Shown in pieces: positions 25,358-58,369 of a DNA stretch of 64,000 nucleotides; within the stretch, counting starts at the first letter, position 1, and every line of letters starts with the position of its first letter. Location of the stretch: positions 7,961 to 71,960 of the forward strand of contig CBINHE010000002.1 in NCBI GenBank assembly GCA_966250375.1, given 5' to 3'. The notes under the pieces were generated by a model. The model was given only the letters and a program-made list of their open reading frames with translations. It had not been told where the DNA came from and did not search any database. Origin of the DNA: an uncultured Oxalobacteraceae bacterium (GTDB lineage Bacteria > Pseudomonadota > Gammaproteobacteria > Burkholderiales > Burkholderiaceae_D). Position numbers and translations under genes: made by a program.

Positions 25358-26305
25358 ATGGATAAAGAAATTTTACTCGCGCAGCCGCGCGGTTTCTGTG
25401 CCGGGGTCGACCGTGCGATCGAAATCGTTGAACGCGCGTTGCAGCAGTTCGGCGCGCCGATCTATGTGCGCCATGAAATCGTGCATAACGCCTATGTGGT
25501 TGATGATCTGCGCACCAAAGGTGCGATTTTTATTGAAGAACTGGCGGACGTCCCGGCCGGCAATACTGTCGTGTTTTCTGCGCATGGCGTGTCCAAGGCG
25601 GTGCAGGTCGAGGCTGACGCGCGCGGCTTGCGTGTATTCGATGCGACTTGTCCTTTGGTGACCAAGGTCCATATCGAGGTCGCCAAGATGCGTCGTGAAG
25701 GTCGTGAAATCATCATGATTGGTCATGACGGACATCCGGAAGTGGAAGGCACGATGGGACAGGCGGAAGAGGGCATGTACCTGGTTGAAAATGTTGCCGA
25801 TGTGGAAAAGCTCATTGTGGCCAACGCCGACATGTTGGCCTATGTGTCGCAGACGACGTTGTCCGTTGACGATACTGCGGACGTGATTGCGGCGCTGAAG
25901 CATAAATTTCCCAATATCACGGCGCCGAAAAGAGGCGATATTTGTTATGCGACGACTAACCGGCAGGAGGCAGTCAAATTCATGGCGCCACAGGTTGAGG
26001 TGGTGATCGTGGTGGGTAGTCCGAATAGCTCCAACTCCAATCGCTTGCGTGAAGTTGCTGAAAAGAAGGGCGTAACCGCCTACATGGTGGACAACGCTTC
26101 GCAAATCGACTCCGCTTGGCTGAACGGGAAAACACGCATTGGCGTGACAGCCGGCGCCTCAGCACCAGAGATATTGGTGCAAGCGGTCATCAACCGATTG
26201 AAAGAATGCGGTGCCAAGAGCGTACGGCCATTGGCAGGGGTCGAGGAGCATGTTACTTTCCCTCTGCCAAAGGGGCTGAATGGCGTTCCACTAGTGCGAA
26301 ATTAA
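25358..26305 (+). CDS. ispH: 4-hydroxy-3-methylbut-2-enyl diphosphate reductase
   Basis: [41 protein letters not shown] motifs including the three cluster cysteines. Confidence 0.97.
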
Positions 26306-26507
26306 ATTTAGAGCATTCAGTCAATTTCTACAAGAAAGTTCATTTTTTAAAGTGGCGATTTTGCAGAATGCAATATCACGGTCACTACTGCAATGCGGGT
26401 TTGGGAAAAAGCTTTTTTGCTTTACACAAAAATTGTGATGTGGCACAAAGAGCTCAACTTATCGCGCTGTCCGGTCACCGCGAGTGCAATATCATCGGCC
26501 TCGGTAT

Positions 26508-26631
26508 TAGAGCGGTTTGCGAATCAGTGTAAGGGGCCAATCTCGGGCCTGCGGTGCTCGGTGTACATCACGTACACGTGCGCTCCTCGGCCCGACCTCG
26601 GCTCCCTTGCACAGACCCGCAAACCGCTCTA
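26508..26631. mobile_element. MITE-like hairpin repeat, TAGAGCGG family, copy A1 (124 bp)
   Basis: Termini TAGAGCGGTTTGCG / CGCAAACCGCTCTA (14 bp perfect, imperfect out to about 27 bp). Internal gcggtgctcg-hairpin-gcgctcctcg...ccttgc module shared with the other copies. Confidence 0.65.
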
Positions 26632-26907
26632 GTGACAGTGCATAAGCAAGGGCCAAAAATATGATAAAAATTTCCATCGAAAGCCATTTAGGAAAGACAA
26701 GATCATGAGCAGTAGTCACACCATCAATAATCCGCAAGTCCGGACTCATCTTTTCCTATAACCAATACTCAAGCATAAGCGACGCGCAGGCAATTTTTGC
26801 TGAATGTGATTTTTTTGCCTGGAATGATTTCTGCTTATCAACATAATGCATTGCGCTGGCGTCGTCACAGCTTTTTTCGATCCGATTTTTTAGAGAGCAA
26901 GAAAATT

Positions 26908-27837
26908 ATGGATACACTTATCCAACAGATTATCAACGGGCTCGTTCTCGGCAGCATGTATGCCTTGGTCGCGCTCGGCTACACGATGGTGTACGGCGTC
27001 CTGAATCTGATCAACTTTGCACATGGCGATGTGCTGATGGTAGGGGCAATGGTCGGTATCACGATCCTGAAAATAGTGCAAACTGCGGCGCCGGATTTGC
27101 CCGGTGTCGTCAAGCTGATCATTGCGATCATTGGTGCGATTCCGGTGTGCATCGCCGTCAATGTGTTGATCGAACGTATCGCCTACCGGAGACTGCGCAA
27201 TGCGCCGCGATTGGCGCCGCTGATCACCGCAATCGGCGTATCAATTCTGTTGCAAACTTTTGCGATGATGATATGGGGCCGCAACCCGGTAACCTTTCCG
27301 CAAGTCATGCCGTCCGAATCGCTCCATTTCTTCGGTGCTCTCATTTCGCCAACCCAGGTGATGCTGCTGATACTGGCGACATTGTCGATGATGGGCTTGT
27401 TATTGCTGGTTGAAAAAACAAAAATGGGGCGCGCGATGCGCGCAACTGCCGAAAATCCCCGTGTAGCCGGCTTGATGGGTGTGGATTCCAATAAAGTCGT
27501 CGTGCTGACGTTTGCCATCGGTGCAGCTCTCGCCGCGGTCGCGGGCGTGATGTGGGGGGCAACTTATGCATCAGCGCAGTTTGCCATGGGTTTCCTGCCG
27601 GGCCTGAAGGCTTTCTCCGCTGCGGTTCTGGGTGGCATTGGCAACATCTACGGCGCCATGTTAGGCGGTATCCTGCTGGGCTTGATCGAGAGTCTCGGCG
27701 CCGGTTACATCGGTGACCTGACCGGTAACTTCCTGGGCAGCCAGTATCAAGATATCTTTGCATTTGTTGTGCTTATTATTGTCCTCACATTACGGCCGTC
27801 CGGCATCATGGGCGAGCGTGTGGCGGATCGCGCATAA
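26908..27837 (+). CDS. livH: Branched-chain amino acid ABC transporter permease
   Basis: MDTLIQQIINGLVLGSMYALVALGYTMVYG typical LivH N-terminus. ATG 26908 chosen over the ORF-track start 26797. Confidence 0.9.
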   Translation: MDTLIQQIINGLVLGSMYALVALGYTMVYGVLNLINFAHGDVLMVGAMVGITILKIVQTAAPDLPGVVKLIIAIIGAIPVCIAVNVLIERIAYRRLRNAPRLAPLITAIGVSILLQTFAMMIWGRNPVTFPQVMPSESLHFFGALISPTQVMLLILATLSMMGLLLLVEKTKMGRAMRATAENPRVAGLMGVDSNKVVVLTFAIGAALAAVAGVMWGATYASAQFAMGFLPGLKAFSAAVLGGIGNIYGAMLGGILLGLIESLGAGYIGDLTGNFLGSQYQDIFAFVVLIIVLTLRPSGIMGERVADRA

Positions 27838-32920: not shown

Positions 32921-33646
32921 ATGGCAGGGATGTTTAATCTGGCGACATTCAGGCGGATTGTGTCCGCAGCGGCATTGGCGGGTATGTTGGCGGGCTTGTT
33001 GTTGACCGTTGTTCAGCAACTTCAGGTGAGCCAGATCATACTCAAGGCTGAAGTGTATGAGAACGCAGCGGCTGCCTCGCAACCTGCCCATGTCCATGCT
33101 TCTGTCGAGCAGGAGCATCACGAACATGAGCATCACGAGCATGAGGTCTGGCAACCTGCCAACGGTGTAGAGCGGACTTTGTTCACGGCCTTGGCGAATA
33201 TCAGTCTGGCCGTTGGCTTCGGTTTGCTGCTGGGAGCCGCCATCTGTCTGCGTGGTGAAGTCAGCGGATGGCGTGCCGGGCTGTTGTGGGGCGTGGCAGG
33301 GTACACGGTTTTTTTTGTGGCCCCTTCCTTGGGTTTATCCCCGGAAGTTCCTGGCACCGAAGCGGCTCCACTGGCTGACCGACAACTATGGTGGCTCATC
33401 ACTGTGGGCATGACGGCAAGTGGACTATCACTGCTGATTTTTGCTCGAACCTGGCAGGTCAAAATACTGGGAGCAATCTTGCTCGGCGTTCCACACCTGA
33501 TCGGTGCGCCGCAGCTGCAAGTTCACACTAACGCACCGCCTGTCGAATTGGCCCGCGCTTTCATCTATGCCACGGCTATTGCCAATGCGGTGTTCTGGCT
33601 CGCGCTTGGCAGTTTGATGGGATTCTTTTACAAGAAATTCGCCTAG
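32921..33646 (+). CDS. cbtA: Cobalt transporter subunit CbtA
   Basis: Polytopic protein with His-rich loop EQEHHEHEHHEHE. Follows cbtB. The start is uncertain (GTG 32906, ATG 32921 or ATG 32930). Stop TAG 33644-33646 lies inside the repeat terminus. Confidence 0.85.
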   Translation: MAGMFNLATFRRIVSAAALAGMLAGLLLTVVQQLQVSQIILKAEVYENAAAASQPAHVHASVEQEHHEHEHHEHEVWQPANGVERTLFTALANISLAVGFGLLLGAAICLRGEVSGWRAGLLWGVAGYTVFFVAPSLGLSPEVPGTEAAPLADRQLWWLITVGMTASGLSLLIFARTWQVKILGAILLGVPHLIGAPQLQVHTNAPPVELARAFIYATAIANAVFWLALGSLMGFFYKKFA

Positions 33647-33881
33647 TGGTCAGTCAGGTTGAAACGGCGGGAAAGAAATCGATGGATTTTTTCGTCTGGC
33701 AAGGGTGTAGCAGGGGTTTCGCGCAGCATGCTGCGCGCCTGCGGAACAGTATCGGCTTGCAAGCCGATACGCGCCCTGCAAGGGCGAGGAGGCGCATAGC
33801 GAGCTATGCAACGACGAGCAACGCAGCCAGGCGGAAAAAGACGCGATTTATTCCCGTCGTTTCAGCCTGACTGACCACTAG
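33643..33881. mobile_element. MITE-like hairpin repeat, copy B1 (239 bp)
   Basis: 31-nt terminal inverted repeats (33643-33673 / 33851-33881, 2 mismatches). About 174-nt core that is about 88% identical (hand alignment) to the reverse complement of 55236-55411. Confidence 0.7.
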
Positions 33882-42733: not shown

Positions 42734-43868
42734 ACGGACAGAATTCGATTTGCTCGTGCCGGCAGGAAACGGTCTGCGGCGCGGGCGCACGACGGGCAGT
42801 TGCGCCACGGCGGCGGTCAAGGCAGCGCTTTACTTGCTATTGCGCGGGGAGCGATGTGAGCGTGTAGAGGTAACACTGCCGGACGGCGCGCATTATCTGG
42901 TGGTGCCGATTCAGGATTTGTGTCGGCTCGATCAACACACTGTGCGTGCAGAGGTGCAGAAGGATGGCGGCGACGATCCGGACAGCACCCATGGCGCGAC
43001 CATTTTCGCCGAGGTGCGGCGCAACGACACGGGGCAGATTCGCTTCTTCGCCGGCCGCGGTGTCGGCACCGCGACCCAGCCCGGTTTGCGGGTAGCGGTG
43101 GGTGAGCCGGCGATTAATCCGGCGCCGCGCCAGATGATGCGGCAGGCGGTTGCTGAAGTGCTGGAAGAATCATTGCCGGAGGAACGGAAAGCAGGCTTTG
43201 ATCTGACGATCGGCTGCGAAAATGGTGAAGTGATCGCGCGGAAAACATTTAATCCCCGGCTCGGCATTCTCGGCGGCATTTCGATCCTCGGCACGTCGGG
43301 CATCGTCGAGCCGATGTCGATGGCATCCTGGATTGCGTCGATTGAAGTGTATGTGCGCGTCGCGCTCGGCGGCGGTGCGCAGAGTGTGGCTTACCTGCCG
43401 GGCAAGATCGGTCGTGATTACGCGAAGGATGTGTTGCAGTTGCCCGAAAAGCGCACGGTGCAGATCGCCAATTTTTTGGGCGATGCGCTCGACTTCACGC
43501 AGAAGGCGCTGAGTGAGGAGCAACGCCGCCTCGAGGTGCTGTGGCTGGCCGGCCATCCAGGCAAACTGGCAAAATTGCTCGACGGCGCATGGGACACGCA
43601 TTCGAGCAAGAGCAACATGGCGATGGGCTGCGTGGCGCGAGTGGCGGCAGAACGCGGGTTTGCGCCGGACTTGGTACAGGAAATAGAAAAGGCAAATACA
43701 GTGGAAGCAGCGATGGAAAGATTAAAGAGCGAACCCGGGGCGCAGGCGTTGTGGGTCGACATCGAGCAGCGCATCGGCGTGCTGGCACATGCGCGCGTGC
43801 CGGCGGTGAATAAGGTTGAAGTGCGCTTGTTTGACTTGCACGGCAATGCGCTAGGAGAGGATGCGTGA
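42720..43868 (+). CDS. cbiD: Cobalt-precorrin-5B (C1)-methyltransferase CbiD
   Basis: [27 protein letters not shown] motifs. Confidence 0.9.
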
Positions 43869-48872: not shown

Positions 48873-49475
48873 ATGAAAACCGATCCTGAATCACATAAAC
48901 GGATGACCCAGCGTCATAAAGAAGGCTTCGAAAAAAAGAAGGCCGCTGCGCAAAAAGAAAAAGGCTTGCTGATTGTGTACACCGGCACCGGCAAAGGCAA
49001 ATCCACCGCCGCATTCGGCATGGGCATGCGCATACTCGGCCATCAGATGAAACTGGGTGTGGTGCAATTCATCAAGGGCGCATTACACAGCGCCGAACGC
49101 CAGGTGCTCGGCAGTAACCCCAATTGCGATTTTCATGTCGTCGGCGCCGGTTATACCTGGGATACGCAGGATCGCGCAGCCGACATGCAAACGGCCGCCA
49201 ACGGTTGGGCCGAAGCGGTCAGGATGATCACCGATCCTTCCTACGATATGGTGATTCTCGATGAACTCAATATCGTGCTTAAGTATCAATACCTCGACTT
49301 GGCCGAAGTCCTTGAGGTATTCGGCAAGCGGCGCGAGATGCTGCACATCGTTGTCACCGGCCGTCATGCACCGGAGGGATTGATCGAACTGGCCGATCTC
49401 GTCAGCGATATTCGCCCGGTAAAACACCCGTATCAGGAGCAGGGCATCAAGGCGCAAAAAGGGGTGGAGTTTTAA
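48873..49475 (+). CDS. cobO: Cob(I)yrinic acid a,c-diamide adenosyltransferase
   Basis: GLLIVYTGTGKGKSTAAFG, VQFIKG, LDELN, TGR motifs. Confidence 0.93.
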   Translation: MKTDPESHKRMTQRHKEGFEKKKAAAQKEKGLLIVYTGTGKGKSTAAFGMGMRILGHQMKLGVVQFIKGALHSAERQVLGSNPNCDFHVVGAGYTWDTQDRAADMQTAANGWAEAVRMITDPSYDMVILDELNIVLKYQYLDLAEVLEVFGKRREMLHIVVTGRHAPEGLIELADLVSDIRPVKHPYQEQGIKAQKGVEF

Positions 49476-49476
49476 G

Positions 49477-50769
49477 GTGCAAACGCAACGCTGCCCCGCG
49501 CTCTTCATCAGCGCACCCGGCTCCAATCACGGCAAGACGACCGTCACTGCCGCGCTCGCCCGCTTCCATGCCAACCAAGGTCGTAAAGTCAGGGTATTCA
49601 AGACCGGGCCGGATTTTCTTGATCCGATGATACTTGAGCGCGCTTGCGGCCAGCCGGTGTACCAACTGGATCTTTGGCTGGCAGGTGAAGCAGAATGTCG
49701 GCGCCTGGTCTACGAGGCGGCGCAAACGGCGGATCTGATCCTGATCGAGGGCGTGATGGGTTTGTTCGACGGTAGCCCTTGCAGCGCTGATCTCGCCGAA
49801 AAATCAGGGGTGCCGGTGCTGGCGGTAATCGACGCATCCGGAGTAGCGCAAACGTTGGGCGCAATCGCGTATGGACTTGCCCATTATCGTTCAGGACTGC
49901 CGTTCGCCGGCGCGCTGGCCAATGCGGTCGCCAGCAGCCGTCATGAAGAAATGATCGTGCAGGGCATGCCCCCGGGAATGCGCTACTTCGGCGGGCTGCC
50001 GCGCAATACGCAATTTACTTTGCCGGAGCGGCATCTGGGTCTGGTGCAGGCCGAAGAGGTTATCGATCTCGAATCCCGCCTGTCGGCAGCCGCAGCGTCG
50101 ATTGCCTTGACAAGCTTGGCAGAATTGCCGGCAGCAGTGGAGTTCACCTGTACCGCCGTTGAACCGTTGCAGCAACTGCTGGCTGGTATGCGCATCGGCA
50201 TTGCGCGTGATCCGGCATTTTCATTTATTTATCCGGCCAATCTGGATTTGTTGGAGGCGCTGGGCGCCGAGCTTGTTTTCTTTTCGCCGCTCGCCGACCA
50301 GGCGCTACCAGAGGTGGACAGCCTTTACCTGCCGGGCGGATATCCGGAACTGCATCTTCAGCAATTGCAGGATAACGCAGCGCTGAAAGCCGCGCTGCAC
50401 AGCCACTTCCAGCGAGGAAAACCGATTTACGCAGAGTGCGGCGGGATGCTGTATTTGCTCGAATCGCTCACCGACAAAGCTGGAAAGCGCGGCGCAATGA
50501 CGGGGATTTTGCCAGGACACGCCCTCATGCAGGCGCGTTTGCAAGGCTTGGGTTATCAATCGGCGCCGATGCCGGGCGGCGTGCTGCGTAGCCATACTTT
50601 TCACCACTCGGTGATCGACACGCCGCTGACCCCGATCGCATCCGGTGAGCGTTTATACAATACCTCGCAAGGAGAGAGGATTTTTCAATTGGAGCGACTG
50701 ACAGCAAGTTACCTGCACTGTTACTTTCCTTCCAATCCAAGCGCGGCTGCCCGGCTGTTTCTGCCATGA
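49477..50769 (+). CDS. cobB: Cobyrinic / hydrogenobyrinic acid a,c-diamide synthase
   Basis: GSNHGKTTVT, FKTGPDFLDP, amidotransferase half with YAECGGMLYL. GTG start 1 nt after the cobO stop. Confidence 0.9.
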   Translation: MQTQRCPALFISAPGSNHGKTTVTAALARFHANQGRKVRVFKTGPDFLDPMILERACGQPVYQLDLWLAGEAECRRLVYEAAQTADLILIEGVMGLFDGSPCSADLAEKSGVPVLAVIDASGVAQTLGAIAYGLAHYRSGLPFAGALANAVASSRHEEMIVQGMPPGMRYFGGLPRNTQFTLPERHLGLVQAEEVIDLESRLSAAAASIALTSLAELPAAVEFTCTAVEPLQQLLAGMRIGIARDPAFSFIYPANLDLLEALGAELVFFSPLADQALPEVDSLYLPGGYPELHLQQLQDNAALKAALHSHFQRGKPIYAECGGMLYLLESLTDKAGKRGAMTGILPGHALMQARLQGLGYQSAPMPGGVLRSHTFHHSVIDTPLTPIASGERLYNTSQGERIFQLERLTASYLHCYFPSNPSAAARLFLP

Positions 50770-55139: not shown

Positions 55140-55465
55140 TAGAGCGGATTGCAAATCACAGTAGGCTGCGCCCCGCGCACCGATACCGTCGCAAGAGCAC
55201 TACCTTATACCAATCTGCAGCCATAACGTGACATTAAATCGCGTCTTTTTTCGCCTGGCTGCGTTGCTCGTCGTTGCCATAGCTCGCTATGGCGCGTCCT
55301 CTCCCTTGCAGGGCGCGTCTGCGCTTGCAAGCGCAGACCGTTACGCAGGCGGACAGTATGCTGTCCGAATTCCCTGCTACACCCTTGCCAGCCGAAAAAA
55401 TCCATCGATTTCATTGTCACGTTATGGCTGCAGATTGGTATTACATCGGAGCGCAAACCGCTCTA
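55140..55465. mobile_element. Composite repeat: TAGAGCGG-family copy A3 interrupted by copy B2
   Basis: Outer termini TAGAGCGGATTGC / GCAAACCGCTCTA. The inner element occupies 55207-55441. Confidence 0.6.
55207..55441. mobile_element. MITE-like hairpin repeat, copy B2 (235 bp, inverted relative to B1)
   Basis: 27-bp perfect terminal inverted repeat ATACCAATCTGCAGCCATAACGTGACA. Core 55236-55411 is homologous to 33676-33849. Confidence 0.7.
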
Positions 55466-58207: not shown

Positions 58208-58369
58208 TAGAGCGGTTTTCGTATGAGTGTGCGGGTGCTGCGGGCCGCTTTGGAGCGCATTGCGGCGTTGCTCGTCGCTTGTGTGGCTCGCCACACGGCG
58301 CTCCTCGCGCCTTGCCCTGGACCCCAAATCAACCCGCAGCACCCGCACACTCATACGAAAACCGCTCTA
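58208..58369. mobile_element. MITE-like hairpin repeat, TAGAGCGG family, copy A2 (162 bp)
   Basis: Perfect 37-bp terminal inverted repeat (58208-58244 / 58333-58369). Internal gcgttgctcgtcg-hairpin-ggcgctcctcgcgccttgc module. Confidence 0.7.

What the first reader, a model, noticed from the sequence alone, without database searches (positions are those of the whole stretch)
26508..26631. All five repeats share one core module and TA-bounded TAG(A/T)G(C/T)GG-like ends, possibly a Correia-like MITE superfamily
Copy A1 (upstream of livH) has termini TAGAGCGGTTTGCG/CGCAAACCGCTCTA. Its interior contains gcggtgctcg - hairpin (gtgtac-atcac-gtacac) - gtgcgctcctcgg ... ctcccttgc. The same ordered blocks (GCGTTGCTCG, a variable-sequence hairpin, GCGC(G)TCCTC, CCTTGC) occur in A2, B1 and B2 even though their terminal repeats differ. 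The termini of A1, A2 and A3 (TAGAGCGGaTT) and of B1 (TAGTGGTCAG), and blocks such as GCGTTGC.TCG.C and CGCCTTG, remind me of the Neisseria Correia element (TATAGTGGATTAA..., ...GGCGTTGCCTCGCC..., ...TTCGTCGCCTTGTCC...). That comparison is from memory and unverified. Correia elements are known to carry promoters, IHF sites and RNase III sites. A related but distinct family here would be a genome-wide expression modifier. No cognate transposase is present in the window.
Basis: partly seen in the sequence, partly recalled or inferred. Interest (0 to 1): 0.6.

Follow-up and report, generated by a model that had tools for sequence, protein, structure and literature searches.

The report
IS630-derived MITEs sharing a hairpin core
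The 124-base repeat upstream of livH is a small non-coding mobile element whose ends come from an IS630-type insertion sequence. Three of the five repeats carry a conserved hairpin module that sits inside mobile elements with unrelated ends across the Burkholderiales, while kinship with the Neisseria Correia element remains suggestive only.

Summary
The repeats are real and abundant: about 130 elements in this 4.45-Mb draft genome, and the core was found in 36 of 150 genomes sampled across the order. They are not one family.

**Ends.**
- A1, A2 and A3 share TA-flanked TAGAGCGG ends. These match a roughly 1.03-1.06-kb IS630-family insertion sequence (IS) found in relatives but not in this assembly.
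- B1 has different TA-flanked ends (GTGGTCAG).
- B2 has TACCAAT ends and a proven 3-bp TTA duplication. Its ends match another IS630-like IS in this genome.

**Core.**
- The GCGTTGC-hairpin-CCTTGC core is strong in A2, B1 and B2 (61-91 bits).
- It is weak in A1 (6 bits).
- A3 has none of its own; the core there belongs to the nested B2.
- The core is not IS-derived. It sits at the apex of elements from at least eight end classes. Its hairpin keeps pairing through compensatory changes.
- The arms next to the core fold better on one strand.

**Correia.** Homology of the interior is not significant. The end tips resemble each other only weakly. However, the transposase of the TAGAGCGG IS groups with a 905-bp Neisseria IS630 element whose ends closely match Correia ends.

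Two earlier follow-ups in this scan examined B1 and B2 of the same window, and first-stage notes on other genomes share short words with A2.

The parts
26508..26631 (.). A1: 124-nt non-coding MITE of the TAGAGCGG class, between ispH (lytB, 25358-26305) and livH (26797-27837)
   Evidence: about 10-12 A1-type copies in the genome
26508..26535 (+). A1 left terminal inverted repeat (TA + GAGCGGTTTGCG...)
   Evidence: I10; 22/27 identical to the right end of the IS630-family IS of G002
26604..26631 (-). A1 right terminal inverted repeat (...CGCAAACCGCTC + TA)
   Evidence: I10
26540..26604 (+). A1 interior with an apex hairpin (26561-26577) and core-like blocks GCGGTGCTCG / GCGCTCCTCGG
   Evidence: only 6.2 bits against core model R1; similarity to the core is weak
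58208..58369 (.). A2: 162-nt MITE of the TAGAGCGG class with 46-nt arms that are 93% complementary
   Evidence: full-length copies about 90% identical in G002 and G003
58254..58322 (+). Core module in A2 (GCGTTGCTCGTCG - hairpin - GCGCTCCTCGCGCCTTGC)
   Evidence: 90.8 bits, E = 1.6e-22
55140..55465 (.). A3: TAGAGCGG-class MITE (109-nt type, with a roughly 20-nt internal deletion) interrupted by B2. It has no core of its own.
55208..55440 (.). B2: 233-nt MITE with TACCAATC... ends, flanked by a TTA duplication (55205-55207 and 55441-55443)
   Evidence: empty-site comparison with intact A3-type copies; ends 23/29 identical to the IS630-like IS at G000:C99
55250..55316 (+). Core module in B2
   Evidence: 60.8 bits, E = 1.3e-14
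33644..33880 (.). B1: 237-nt MITE with TA + GTGGTCAGTCAGG... ends. It shares about 180 nt of interior with B2, in inverted orientation.
   Evidence: (I1, I3, I6)
33771..33835 (-). Core module in B1
   Evidence: 62.4 bits, E = 4.9e-15

Best explanation
**What A1 is.** A1 is a non-autonomous MITE. Its roughly 27-nt terminal inverted repeats derive from an IS630-family IS. That IS is 1.03-1.06 kb long, has two reading frames joined by a frameshift, and has ends reading TAGAGCGnwTTTC....

**How it moves (inferred).** A transposase supplied in trans by that IS binds the two ends, cuts the element out and pastes it into a TA, which is duplicated. This follows from what is established for the IS630/Tc1 family. 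The assembled genome of the window lacks that transposase, so its TAGAGCGG copies are probably stranded now.

**How the five repeats differ.** They belong to three end classes served by different enzymes:
- TAGAGCGG: TA flanks, IS630-family.
- GTGGTCAG: TA flanks, enzyme not found.
- TACCAATC: TNA duplication, matched to an IS630-like IS in the same genome.

**What links A2, B1 and B2, and faintly A1.** The link is a separate 50-70-nt module, not the ends. It reads GCnGCGTTGCyCsTCG, then a 5-6-bp hairpin with a CTCG loop, then GCGCTCsksGCGCCTTGC. It always lies at the apex of the element's long hairpin.

**What the module does (inferred).** I read it as a hitch-hiking passenger that MITEs of unrelated IS lineages have repeatedly acquired. 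It may be kept because it seeds hairpin or cruciform folding of one strand and so brings the two ends together. This last step was not tested.
For: **The elements are abundant and mobile.**
- The genome holds 53 core copies, and the cores sit in at least 8 end classes.
- 199 TAGAGCGG tips were counted.
- Element sizes run from 44 to 357 nt and include nested insertions.
- The core copies lie almost only between genes.

**Cognate ISs were found.**
- G002, which carries a protein annotated as from a Herminiimonas sp. MAG, has TAGAGCGGATTTCG... ends around a DDE_3 transposase. The IS is 1025 bp once two contigs are joined across a 127-nt overlap.
- Homologous ISs with the same ends occur in Noviherbaspirillum cavernae (L180:825-1879) and in a JGI contig (L181:802-1858).
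- The A1 tip is 22/27 identical to the IS end.
- The IS at G000:C99:10895-12061 has TACCAATCTTCAG... ends, TAA flanks and a DDE_3 domain.
- The IS at G000:C73:3230-4594 is ISAzo13-type, and its ends are 30/32 identical to those of a third MITE class.

**The core is separate from the ends.**
- It is absent from intact A3-type copies and from minimal 44-70-nt TAGAGCGG elements.
- I saw nothing like it when reading the subterminal sequences of the joined IS; no formal search of the IS sequences was run.
- It is conserved across genera while the flanking arms differ.
- It was found in 36 of 150 genomes and 27 of 97 genera of the order.
- It was also found in Burkholderia and Caballeronia replicons.

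**The core is structured.**
- Four of five hairpin pairs show compensatory double changes, in 17, 16, 12 and 1 sequences.
- With 30-55 nt of arms included, the strand complementary to GCGTTGC folds 7-11 kcal/mol better. This holds in 20/27 copies here (p = 1e-4) and 71/79 copies in other genera (p = 1e-13).
Against: **Mobility of the TAGAGCGG class is only indirectly shown.**
- No empty site was available for a TAGAGCGG-class insertion, because no same-genus genome is held. Its TA duplication therefore cannot be separated from the inverted repeat.
- The cognate transposase is missing from this 202-contig assembly.
- The G002 IS copy has at least two, probably three, frameshifts.

**A1's membership of the core family is weak** (6.2 bits).

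**Nothing shows what the core does.**
- There is no orientation bias relative to neighbouring genes: 15 same versus 13 opposite.
- There is no preference for convergent, tandem or divergent gaps.
- No promoter or terminator signal above expectation was found around A1.
- How the same core came to lie between unrelated ends is unexplained.
Confidence: 0.75

Rival explanations
1. The elements, core included, are true homologues of the Neisseria Correia elements. On this view the whole element, ends and interior, descends from one ancestor within Burkholderiales/Neisseriaceae.
For: **Shared general features.**
- Both are 100-160-nt hairpin elements flanked by TA.
- Neisseria lies in the same GTDB order as the window's genome.

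**Weak sequence signals.**
- The tips read TA-GAGCGGATT versus TA-TAGTGGATT, 9/11 identical. Anchored alignment of Correia with the A3 left end gives z of about 3 and p = 0.003-0.015. The TNA-class ends give z of about 0.
- All three short-form Correia copies align over the full length of the core model and rank 2nd, 4th and 5th in 77 kb. About 0.1-0.3% of 106-nt windows score as high.

**Transposase kinship.**
- The transposases of the TAGAGCGG IS and of the Neisseria IS with Correia-like ends are 28% identical over their full length (E = 4e-30). The other IS630-like IS of G000 gives only E = 8e-4.
Against: - Core HMM against 200 kb of Neisseria DNA: no hit at E <= 10. Correia HMM against the genome: best E = 0.54, and not in these elements.
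- Pairwise alignment is no better than dinucleotide shuffles.
- The covariance-model scores of 9.6-11.2 bits lie inside the noise. Noise reaches 11.9 bits in the same search and 20 bits in the window.
- No core match at E <= 1e-5 was listed for any Neisseriaceae genome among the 150 sampled.
- True family members score at least 31 bits, with a wide gap down to noise.
- The core occurs with unrelated ends, so sharing it would not show that the elements share an ancestor.
Confidence: 0.3
2. The core is itself a small mobile unit, like the 75-83-nt three-hairpin module seen here. It would insert into the apex of existing hairpin elements using an unidentified enzyme, possibly through single-stranded DNA.
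For: - The three-hairpin module demonstrably inserts into otherwise identical elements. A3-type copies are 109 nt without it and 186 nt with it. A1-type copies are 124 nt without it and 202 nt with it, and there it lies in the apex hairpin.
- The same arms can carry a different apex (C26:8904).
- The core lies inside at least 8 end classes.
- In 34 of 45 cases the GCGTTGC strand lies on the locally G-rich strand (p = 0.0008). Such a bias is expected of insertion into one replication strand.
- The arms fold better on one strand.
Against: - No pair of otherwise identical elements with and without the core was found.
- No target duplication or defined ends of the core were seen.
- The GC-skew bias was not significant in other genera: 46/79, p = 0.18, using 8-kb windows.
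- The genome's Y1 (IS200/RAYT-type) genes are flanked by their own, different GTAG-type REP sequences. No core or module motif lies within 2.5 kb of them.
Confidence: 0.3
3. The core is a functional RNA element, for example a processing site, a stabiliser or terminator, or a small RNA. The host would select for it after co-transcription with neighbouring genes.
For: - The unpaired blocks are conserved across the order and the hairpin covaries.
- One strand folds better, through G-U pairs.
- Correia and ERIC elements are known RNase substrates (PMC10969869).
Against: - Orientation relative to flanking genes is random (15:13) and there is no preference for 3' ends or convergent gaps.
- No Rfam family matches. 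Only generic hairpin (miRNA-type) hits appear, far below threshold.
- No terminator-like site was found around A1.
Confidence: 0.15

Closest known systems
Correia repeat-enclosed elements (CREE / NEMIS) of Neisseria
   Same: - Small, non-coding, TA-flanked hairpin MITEs of 100-160 nt, present in many copies and mostly between genes.
- Length variants arise from an internal module (Correia: 105 versus 155 nt).
- Similar end tip: TA-nAGyGGATT.
- The closest candidate parent ISs belong to the same IS630 subgroup.
   Different: - The 26-nt Correia repeat is not present (0 of 13-mer matches in G000).
- The interiors are not significantly alike.
- Here one apex core is shared by elements with unrelated ends and two duplication lengths.
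- The family spans many genera of Burkholderiales, not one genus.
- IHF sites, promoters and RNase III cleavage were not shown here.
RUP of Streptococcus pneumoniae, with IS630-Spn1 as its proposed mobiliser
   Same: - A MITE whose inverted repeats match an IS630-family IS and which inserts at TA (PMC2229807).
- The Neisseria IS found here is about 55% identical to streptococcal IS630 transposases.
   Different: - RUP is one family with one IS partner in the same genome.
- Here the partner IS of the TAGAGCGG class is absent from the assembly.
- Several IS lineages share one passenger core.
REP / REPIN elements with RAYT transposases
   Same: - Short, conserved, imperfect palindromes that persist for a long time.
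- Strand asymmetry.
   Different: - There is no GTAG head, and no RAYT gene is flanked by the core.
- The genome's RAYT-like genes have their own distinct REPs.
- These elements have long terminal inverted repeats and target duplications.

Membership tests
Correia / CREE / NEMIS | 26-nt terminal inverted repeat TATAGTGGATTAA(CAAAAA|ATTTAAA)... (PMC5039591) | tested here: not met
   G000 has no TATAGTGGATTAA. The tips share 9/11 positions. The best anchored alignment gives p = 0.003-0.015 uncorrected.
Correia / CREE / NEMIS | Conserved interior (GGCGTTGCCTCGCC ... GCTTCGTCGCCTTGTCC) | tested here: inconclusive
   The HMM found no hit. Shuffle tests gave z = 0.3-1.1. The covariance model gave 9.6-11.2 bits, E = 0.2-0.5, within noise.
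Correia / CREE / NEMIS | TA target duplication | tested here: inconclusive
   All 30 paired TAGAGCGG elements begin and end with TA, and so do the cognate IS copies. No empty site was available to separate the duplication from the repeat.
Correia / CREE / NEMIS | Promoters, IHF site and RNase III cleavage | not testable with these tools
   The consensus scan around A1 found one promoter-like site, which equals expectation and lies outside the element.
IS630-derived MITE | Terminal inverted repeats match those of an IS630-family IS | tested here: met
   A1 tip 22/27 and A2 tip 17/23 identical to the G002 IS ends. The ISs carry DDE_3 transposases that their sources annotate as IS630 family.
IS630-derived MITE | No coding capacity, small size, many copies | tested here: met
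   Sizes are 44-357 nt, and 199 tips were counted. The ORFs overlapping A1 (ORF listing) were not kept by the codon-usage gene caller.
IS630-derived MITE | Cognate transposase present in the same genome | tested here: not met
   tblastn of the G002 transposase against G000 gave a best E of 0.054. The assembly has 202 contigs, so an unassembled copy cannot be excluded.
REP / REPIN-RAYT | GTAG-headed palindrome flanking a Y1 transposase gene | tested here: not met
   Y1 genes at C40 and C74 have their own distinct REPs. No core motif lies within 2.5 kb.
Any Rfam RNA family | Match at the gathering score | tested here: not met
   Only the cobalamin riboswitch and a tRNA matched in the window. In E-value mode only miRNA-type hairpin noise appeared.

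The most novel reading that the evidence does not exclude
The 50-70-nt core, together with the three-hairpin module, would be a new kind of order-wide hyper-parasite: a structured passenger that rides inside MITEs of unrelated transposase families (two IS630 lineages, ISAzo13 and others). It would act at the single-strand level, which would explain the one-strand folding and the possible orientation bias relative to replication. It would be old enough to be shared with the Correia elements of Neisseria.
Probability: 0.2. Interest if true: 0.8.

Novelty: new variant of a known kind. Interest (0 to 1): 0.6.

Why it matters
- MITE interiors are usually regarded as junk left over from the parent IS. 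Here one conserved, structured interior is shared by elements with unrelated ends in about a quarter of the Burkholderiales genomes sampled. That implies selection on the passenger itself and gives a defined sequence to test.
- The work assigns parent ISs to three MITE classes.
- As a by-product, it points to a 905-bp IS630 element with Correia-like ends in Neisseria. That would make the long-open question of what moves Correia elements directly testable.

Tried and rejected
**Tests of the Correia link that failed or stayed at noise level.**
- nhmmer of the core against Neisseria DNA, and of Correia against the genome, found nothing.
- Three Smith-Waterman scoring schemes against dinucleotide shuffles were not significant.
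- Iterating the covariance model over 253 kb of loci from many genera added no divergent members. There is a gap from 31 bits down to 15.7 bits, so I did not build a second model.

**Searches for a parent IS of the TAGAGCGG class.**
- G000: no long pairs of ends were found.
- G002: the nine solo ends examined were truncated remnants next to ordinary genes.
- ISAzo13 is absent from G002, G003, G004 and G028.

**Other checks.**
- Empty-site comparison for A1 in relatives failed. Only different genera are held and the intergenic region is not alignable. The gap is 260 nt in G003 and 491 nt (26306-26796) here.
- RAYT association was rejected.
- Rfam gave nothing.
- A plasmid search found only the core, in unannotated Burkholderia and Caballeronia replicons.
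- No held paper contains the repeat strings.
- Two cited papers were not held: Polaromonas JS666 (PMC2570305) and Siddique 2011 (PMC3024310).

Full report
**Observation**

A1 lies at 26508-26631. It has perfect 14-nt termini (TAGAGCGGTTTGCG / CGCAAACCGCTCTA), and its arms are 86% complementary over 28 nt. Its apex hairpin is at 26561-26577.

A1 sits between ispH (lytB) and the first liv permease gene.

- A2 is at 58208-58369.
- A3 is at 55140-55465.
- B1 is at 33644-33880.
- B2 is at 55208-55440.

**Copy number and spread**

The window is G000:C2:7961-71960, in a 4.45-Mb draft of 202 contigs with 54.8% G+C.

An iterated nhmmer search with the roughly 51-nt core found 53 copies. Read with their flanks, these cores lie inside at least eight different classes of terminal inverted repeat. 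End-tip searches suggest about 130 elements in the draft, and many contigs break inside them.

The organisms included:
- Massilia, Telluria, Noviherbaspirillum, Janthinobacterium, Herbaspirillum, Herminiimonas and Collimonas
- Rhizobacter, Polaromonas and Rhodoferax
- Nitrosomonas and Sterolibacteriaceae

A blastn search also found the core in Burkholderia and Caballeronia replicons, again at the apex of long hairpins with yet other arms.

A covariance model of the core (R1) was built from 44 sequences from several genera, with only the central hairpin annotated. At E <= 1e-5 it matched 36 of 150 genomes drawn evenly from the order, in 27 of 97 genera.

**Do all five copies share the core?**

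In the window, R1 gave these scores:
- A2: 90.8 bits.
- B1: 62.4 bits.
- B2: 60.8 bits.
- A1: 6.2 bits (E = 3.4, rank 22), while chance hits in coding DNA reach 20 bits.

A1 does carry blocks similar to the core (GCGGTGCTCG, GCGCTCCTCGG, CCCTTGC), but its membership of the core family is not established.

A3 has no core of its own. Seven intact 109-nt copies of the A3 type elsewhere in the genome have a different interior, and the core inside A3 belongs to the nested B2.

The intact copies also provide an empty site. They read ...CCTTACATCGG..., whereas A3 reads CCTTA-[TACCAAT...ATTGGTA]-TTACATCGG. B2 therefore duplicated TTA. Other copies of the B2 class are flanked by TAA, TTA or TGA.

The ends therefore fall into at least two kinds:
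- TA-flanked: TAGAGCGG in A1-A3, and GTGGTCAG in B1.
- TNA-flanked: B2 and three further classes.

**Parent insertion sequences**

*ISAzo13 partner of a TNA class.* G000:C73:3230-4594 is a 1365-bp ISAzo13-family IS (PF07592, NF033519). It has one stop codon and one frameshift. Its roughly 32-nt ends are 30/32 identical to those of the MITE class beginning TAAGGAACGTGC, and it is flanked by TAA.

*IS630-like partner of B2.* G000:C99:10895-12061 is an IS630-like IS with a DDE_3 domain. Its ends read TACCAATCTTCAGTCACAACGT, 23/29 identical to B2, and it is flanked by TAA.

*IS630-family partner of the TAGAGCGG class.*
- No long pairs of ends exist in G000.
- In G002 the nine solo ends examined are truncated remnants.
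- A DDE_3 search in G002 found a transposase at the end of contig C182, preceded by TAGAGCGGATTTCGTAATTG.
- Its continuation lies at the start of contig C133 and is followed by ...CTAATTCGAAATCCGCTCTA.
- The two contigs overlap by 127 nt and join into a 1025-bp IS flanked by TA. It has at least two, probably three, frameshifts.
- G002 carries a protein annotated as from a Herminiimonas sp. MAG.
- Homologues are annotated as IS630 family transposases and are usually split into two frames, with fused 316-aa forms also present.
- Two homologues that I fetched are bounded by the same ends: Noviherbaspirillum cavernae, 1055 bp, and a JGI contig, 1057 bp.
- The A1 tip is 22/27 identical to the right end of the G002 IS.
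- G000 has no homologue of this transposase in its assembly.

**The core**

On reading the subterminal sequences of the joined IS, I saw nothing resembling the core. I did not run a formal search of the IS sequences. The core is also absent from minimal 44-70-nt TAGAGCGG elements and from the A3 type.

Across genera its unpaired blocks are nearly invariant, while the arms next to it differ. Four of the five hairpin pairs show compensatory double changes.

With 30-55 nt of arms included, the strand complementary to GCGTTGC folds 7-11 kcal/mol better. This holds in 20 of 27 copies here (p = 1e-4) and in 71 of 79 copies in other genera (p = 1e-13). The core alone shows no such asymmetry in G000, and in other genera the GCGTTGC strand is slightly the more stable one.

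Orientation relative to neighbouring genes is random (15 versus 13), and the kinds of intergenic gap occupied follow expectation.

In 34 of 45 cases the GCGTTGC strand lies on the locally G-rich strand (p = 0.0008). With 8-kb windows in other genera the trend is the same but not significant (46/79, p = 0.18). I treat this as unexplained.

A separate 75-83-nt three-hairpin module (about 61 copies by motif count) inserts on its own:
- A3-type copies are 109 nt without it and 186 nt with it.
- A1-type copies are 124 nt without it and 202 nt with it, and there it lies in the apex hairpin.

The genome's Y1-transposase genes have their own GTAG-type REPs and are not near core or module copies.

**Correia**

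I fetched real Correia copies, of 155, 106 and 101 nt, from Neisseria prophage contigs. The published repeat variants confirm them (PMC5039591).

The tests gave the following:
- HMM searches in both directions found nothing.
- Pairwise alignment was no better than shuffles.
- R1 ranked the three short-form copies 2nd, 4th and 5th in 77 kb, aligned full-length and in register. The scores were only 9.6-11.2 bits (E = 0.2-0.5), against a noise maximum of 11.9 bits.
- About 0.1-0.3% of 106-nt windows score as high. That is suggestive for a hypothesis stated beforehand, but not after allowing for how the hypothesis arose.
- Anchored alignment of the ends gave z of about 3 for the A3 left end and about 0 for the TNA classes.

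An order-wide scan showed many Correia tips only in one genus, taken to be Neisseria. One of those genomes, G123, carries at least 11 copies of a 905-bp IS630-family IS:
- Its left end reads TATAGTCAATTAAAAACAAAATGGTAC.
- Its right end reads TATAGTCAATTAAATTTAAAATAGGAC.
- It is flanked by TA, and some copies lie inside Correia elements.

These ends align with the four published Correia variants at z = 3-6. By eye, the two ends parallel the two known Correia variants, AACAAAAA and AAATTTAAA.

Its transposase is 28% identical over 279 aa (E = 4e-30) to that of the TAGAGCGG IS. Against the C99 IS the TAGAGCGG-IS transposase gives only E = 8e-4.

Homologues are annotated in N. sicca, N. mucosa, N. 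meningitidis (partial), N. gonorrhoeae, Eikenella and Conchiformibius. They are about 55% identical to streptococcal IS630 transposases.

The papers I could read say that the enzyme that mobilises Correia elements is undetermined (PMC2649163, PMC2229807). None of the held papers contains these end strings. I cannot exclude that specialists already know of the link.

**Verdict**

A1 is an ordinary kind of element, an IS630-derived MITE, and its parent IS family is now identified.

The unusual part is the conserved, structured apex core that is shared by MITEs with unrelated ends across an order. Its function and its mode of spread are unknown.

Kinship with Correia is plausible at the level of the parent IS subgroup, but it is unproven for the interior.

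Earlier follow-ups in this scan reached compatible conclusions for B1 and B2. I re-tested the nesting and the one-strand folding myself.

Noticed in passing
L182-L189 (G123, a 2.9-Mb Neisseria genome), e.g. L185:1174-2078: A 905-bp IS630-family IS in at least 11 copies. It has orfA of 129 aa and orfB of 197 aa joined at an A7 run. It is flanked by TA, and its ends align with the four published Correia repeat variants at z = 3-6. Some copies lie inside Correia elements. It is a candidate parent IS lineage for Correia. Homologues are annotated in several Neisseria species.
   Followed up: partly
G000:C73:3230-4594 (outside the window): An ISAzo13-family IS of 1365 bp, with one stop codon and one frameshift. 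Its 32-nt ends match a MITE class (TAAGGAACGTGC...) that also carries the core. Both have a TAA/TTA/TGA 3-bp duplication.
   Followed up: yes
G000:C99:10895-12061 and window 55205-55443: An IS630-like (DDE_3) IS and its MITE derivatives (the B2 class) duplicate 3 bp (TNA) rather than the TA usual for IS630. This is proven for B2 by an empty-site comparison.
   Followed up: partly
genome-wide (45 core copies on contigs longer than 15 kb): In 34 of 45 cases the GCGTTGC strand of the core lies on the locally G-rich strand (p = 0.0008). The trend in other genera is weaker and not significant (46/79). This may be an orientation bias relative to replication.
   Followed up: partly
G000:C40:35392-36177 and C74:7726-8277 (outside the window): Two RAYT-like Y1-transposase genes with their own GTAG-headed REP palindromes, downstream of the C40 gene and on both sides of the C74 gene. 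These are unrelated to the core family.
   Followed up: no
window 43494-43537 and 49440-49502 (minus strand): Core model R1 gives 20.1 and 16.8 bits inside cob-operon coding DNA. These are chance matches and show that the model's E-values are too optimistic in G+C-rich coding sequence.
   Followed up: no
G000:C88:17404-17760 (outside the window): A second nested case. A B2-class element lies inside a TAGAGCG-class (F8-type) element at GATG-TAA-GGG, again with a TAA duplication.
   Followed up: partly
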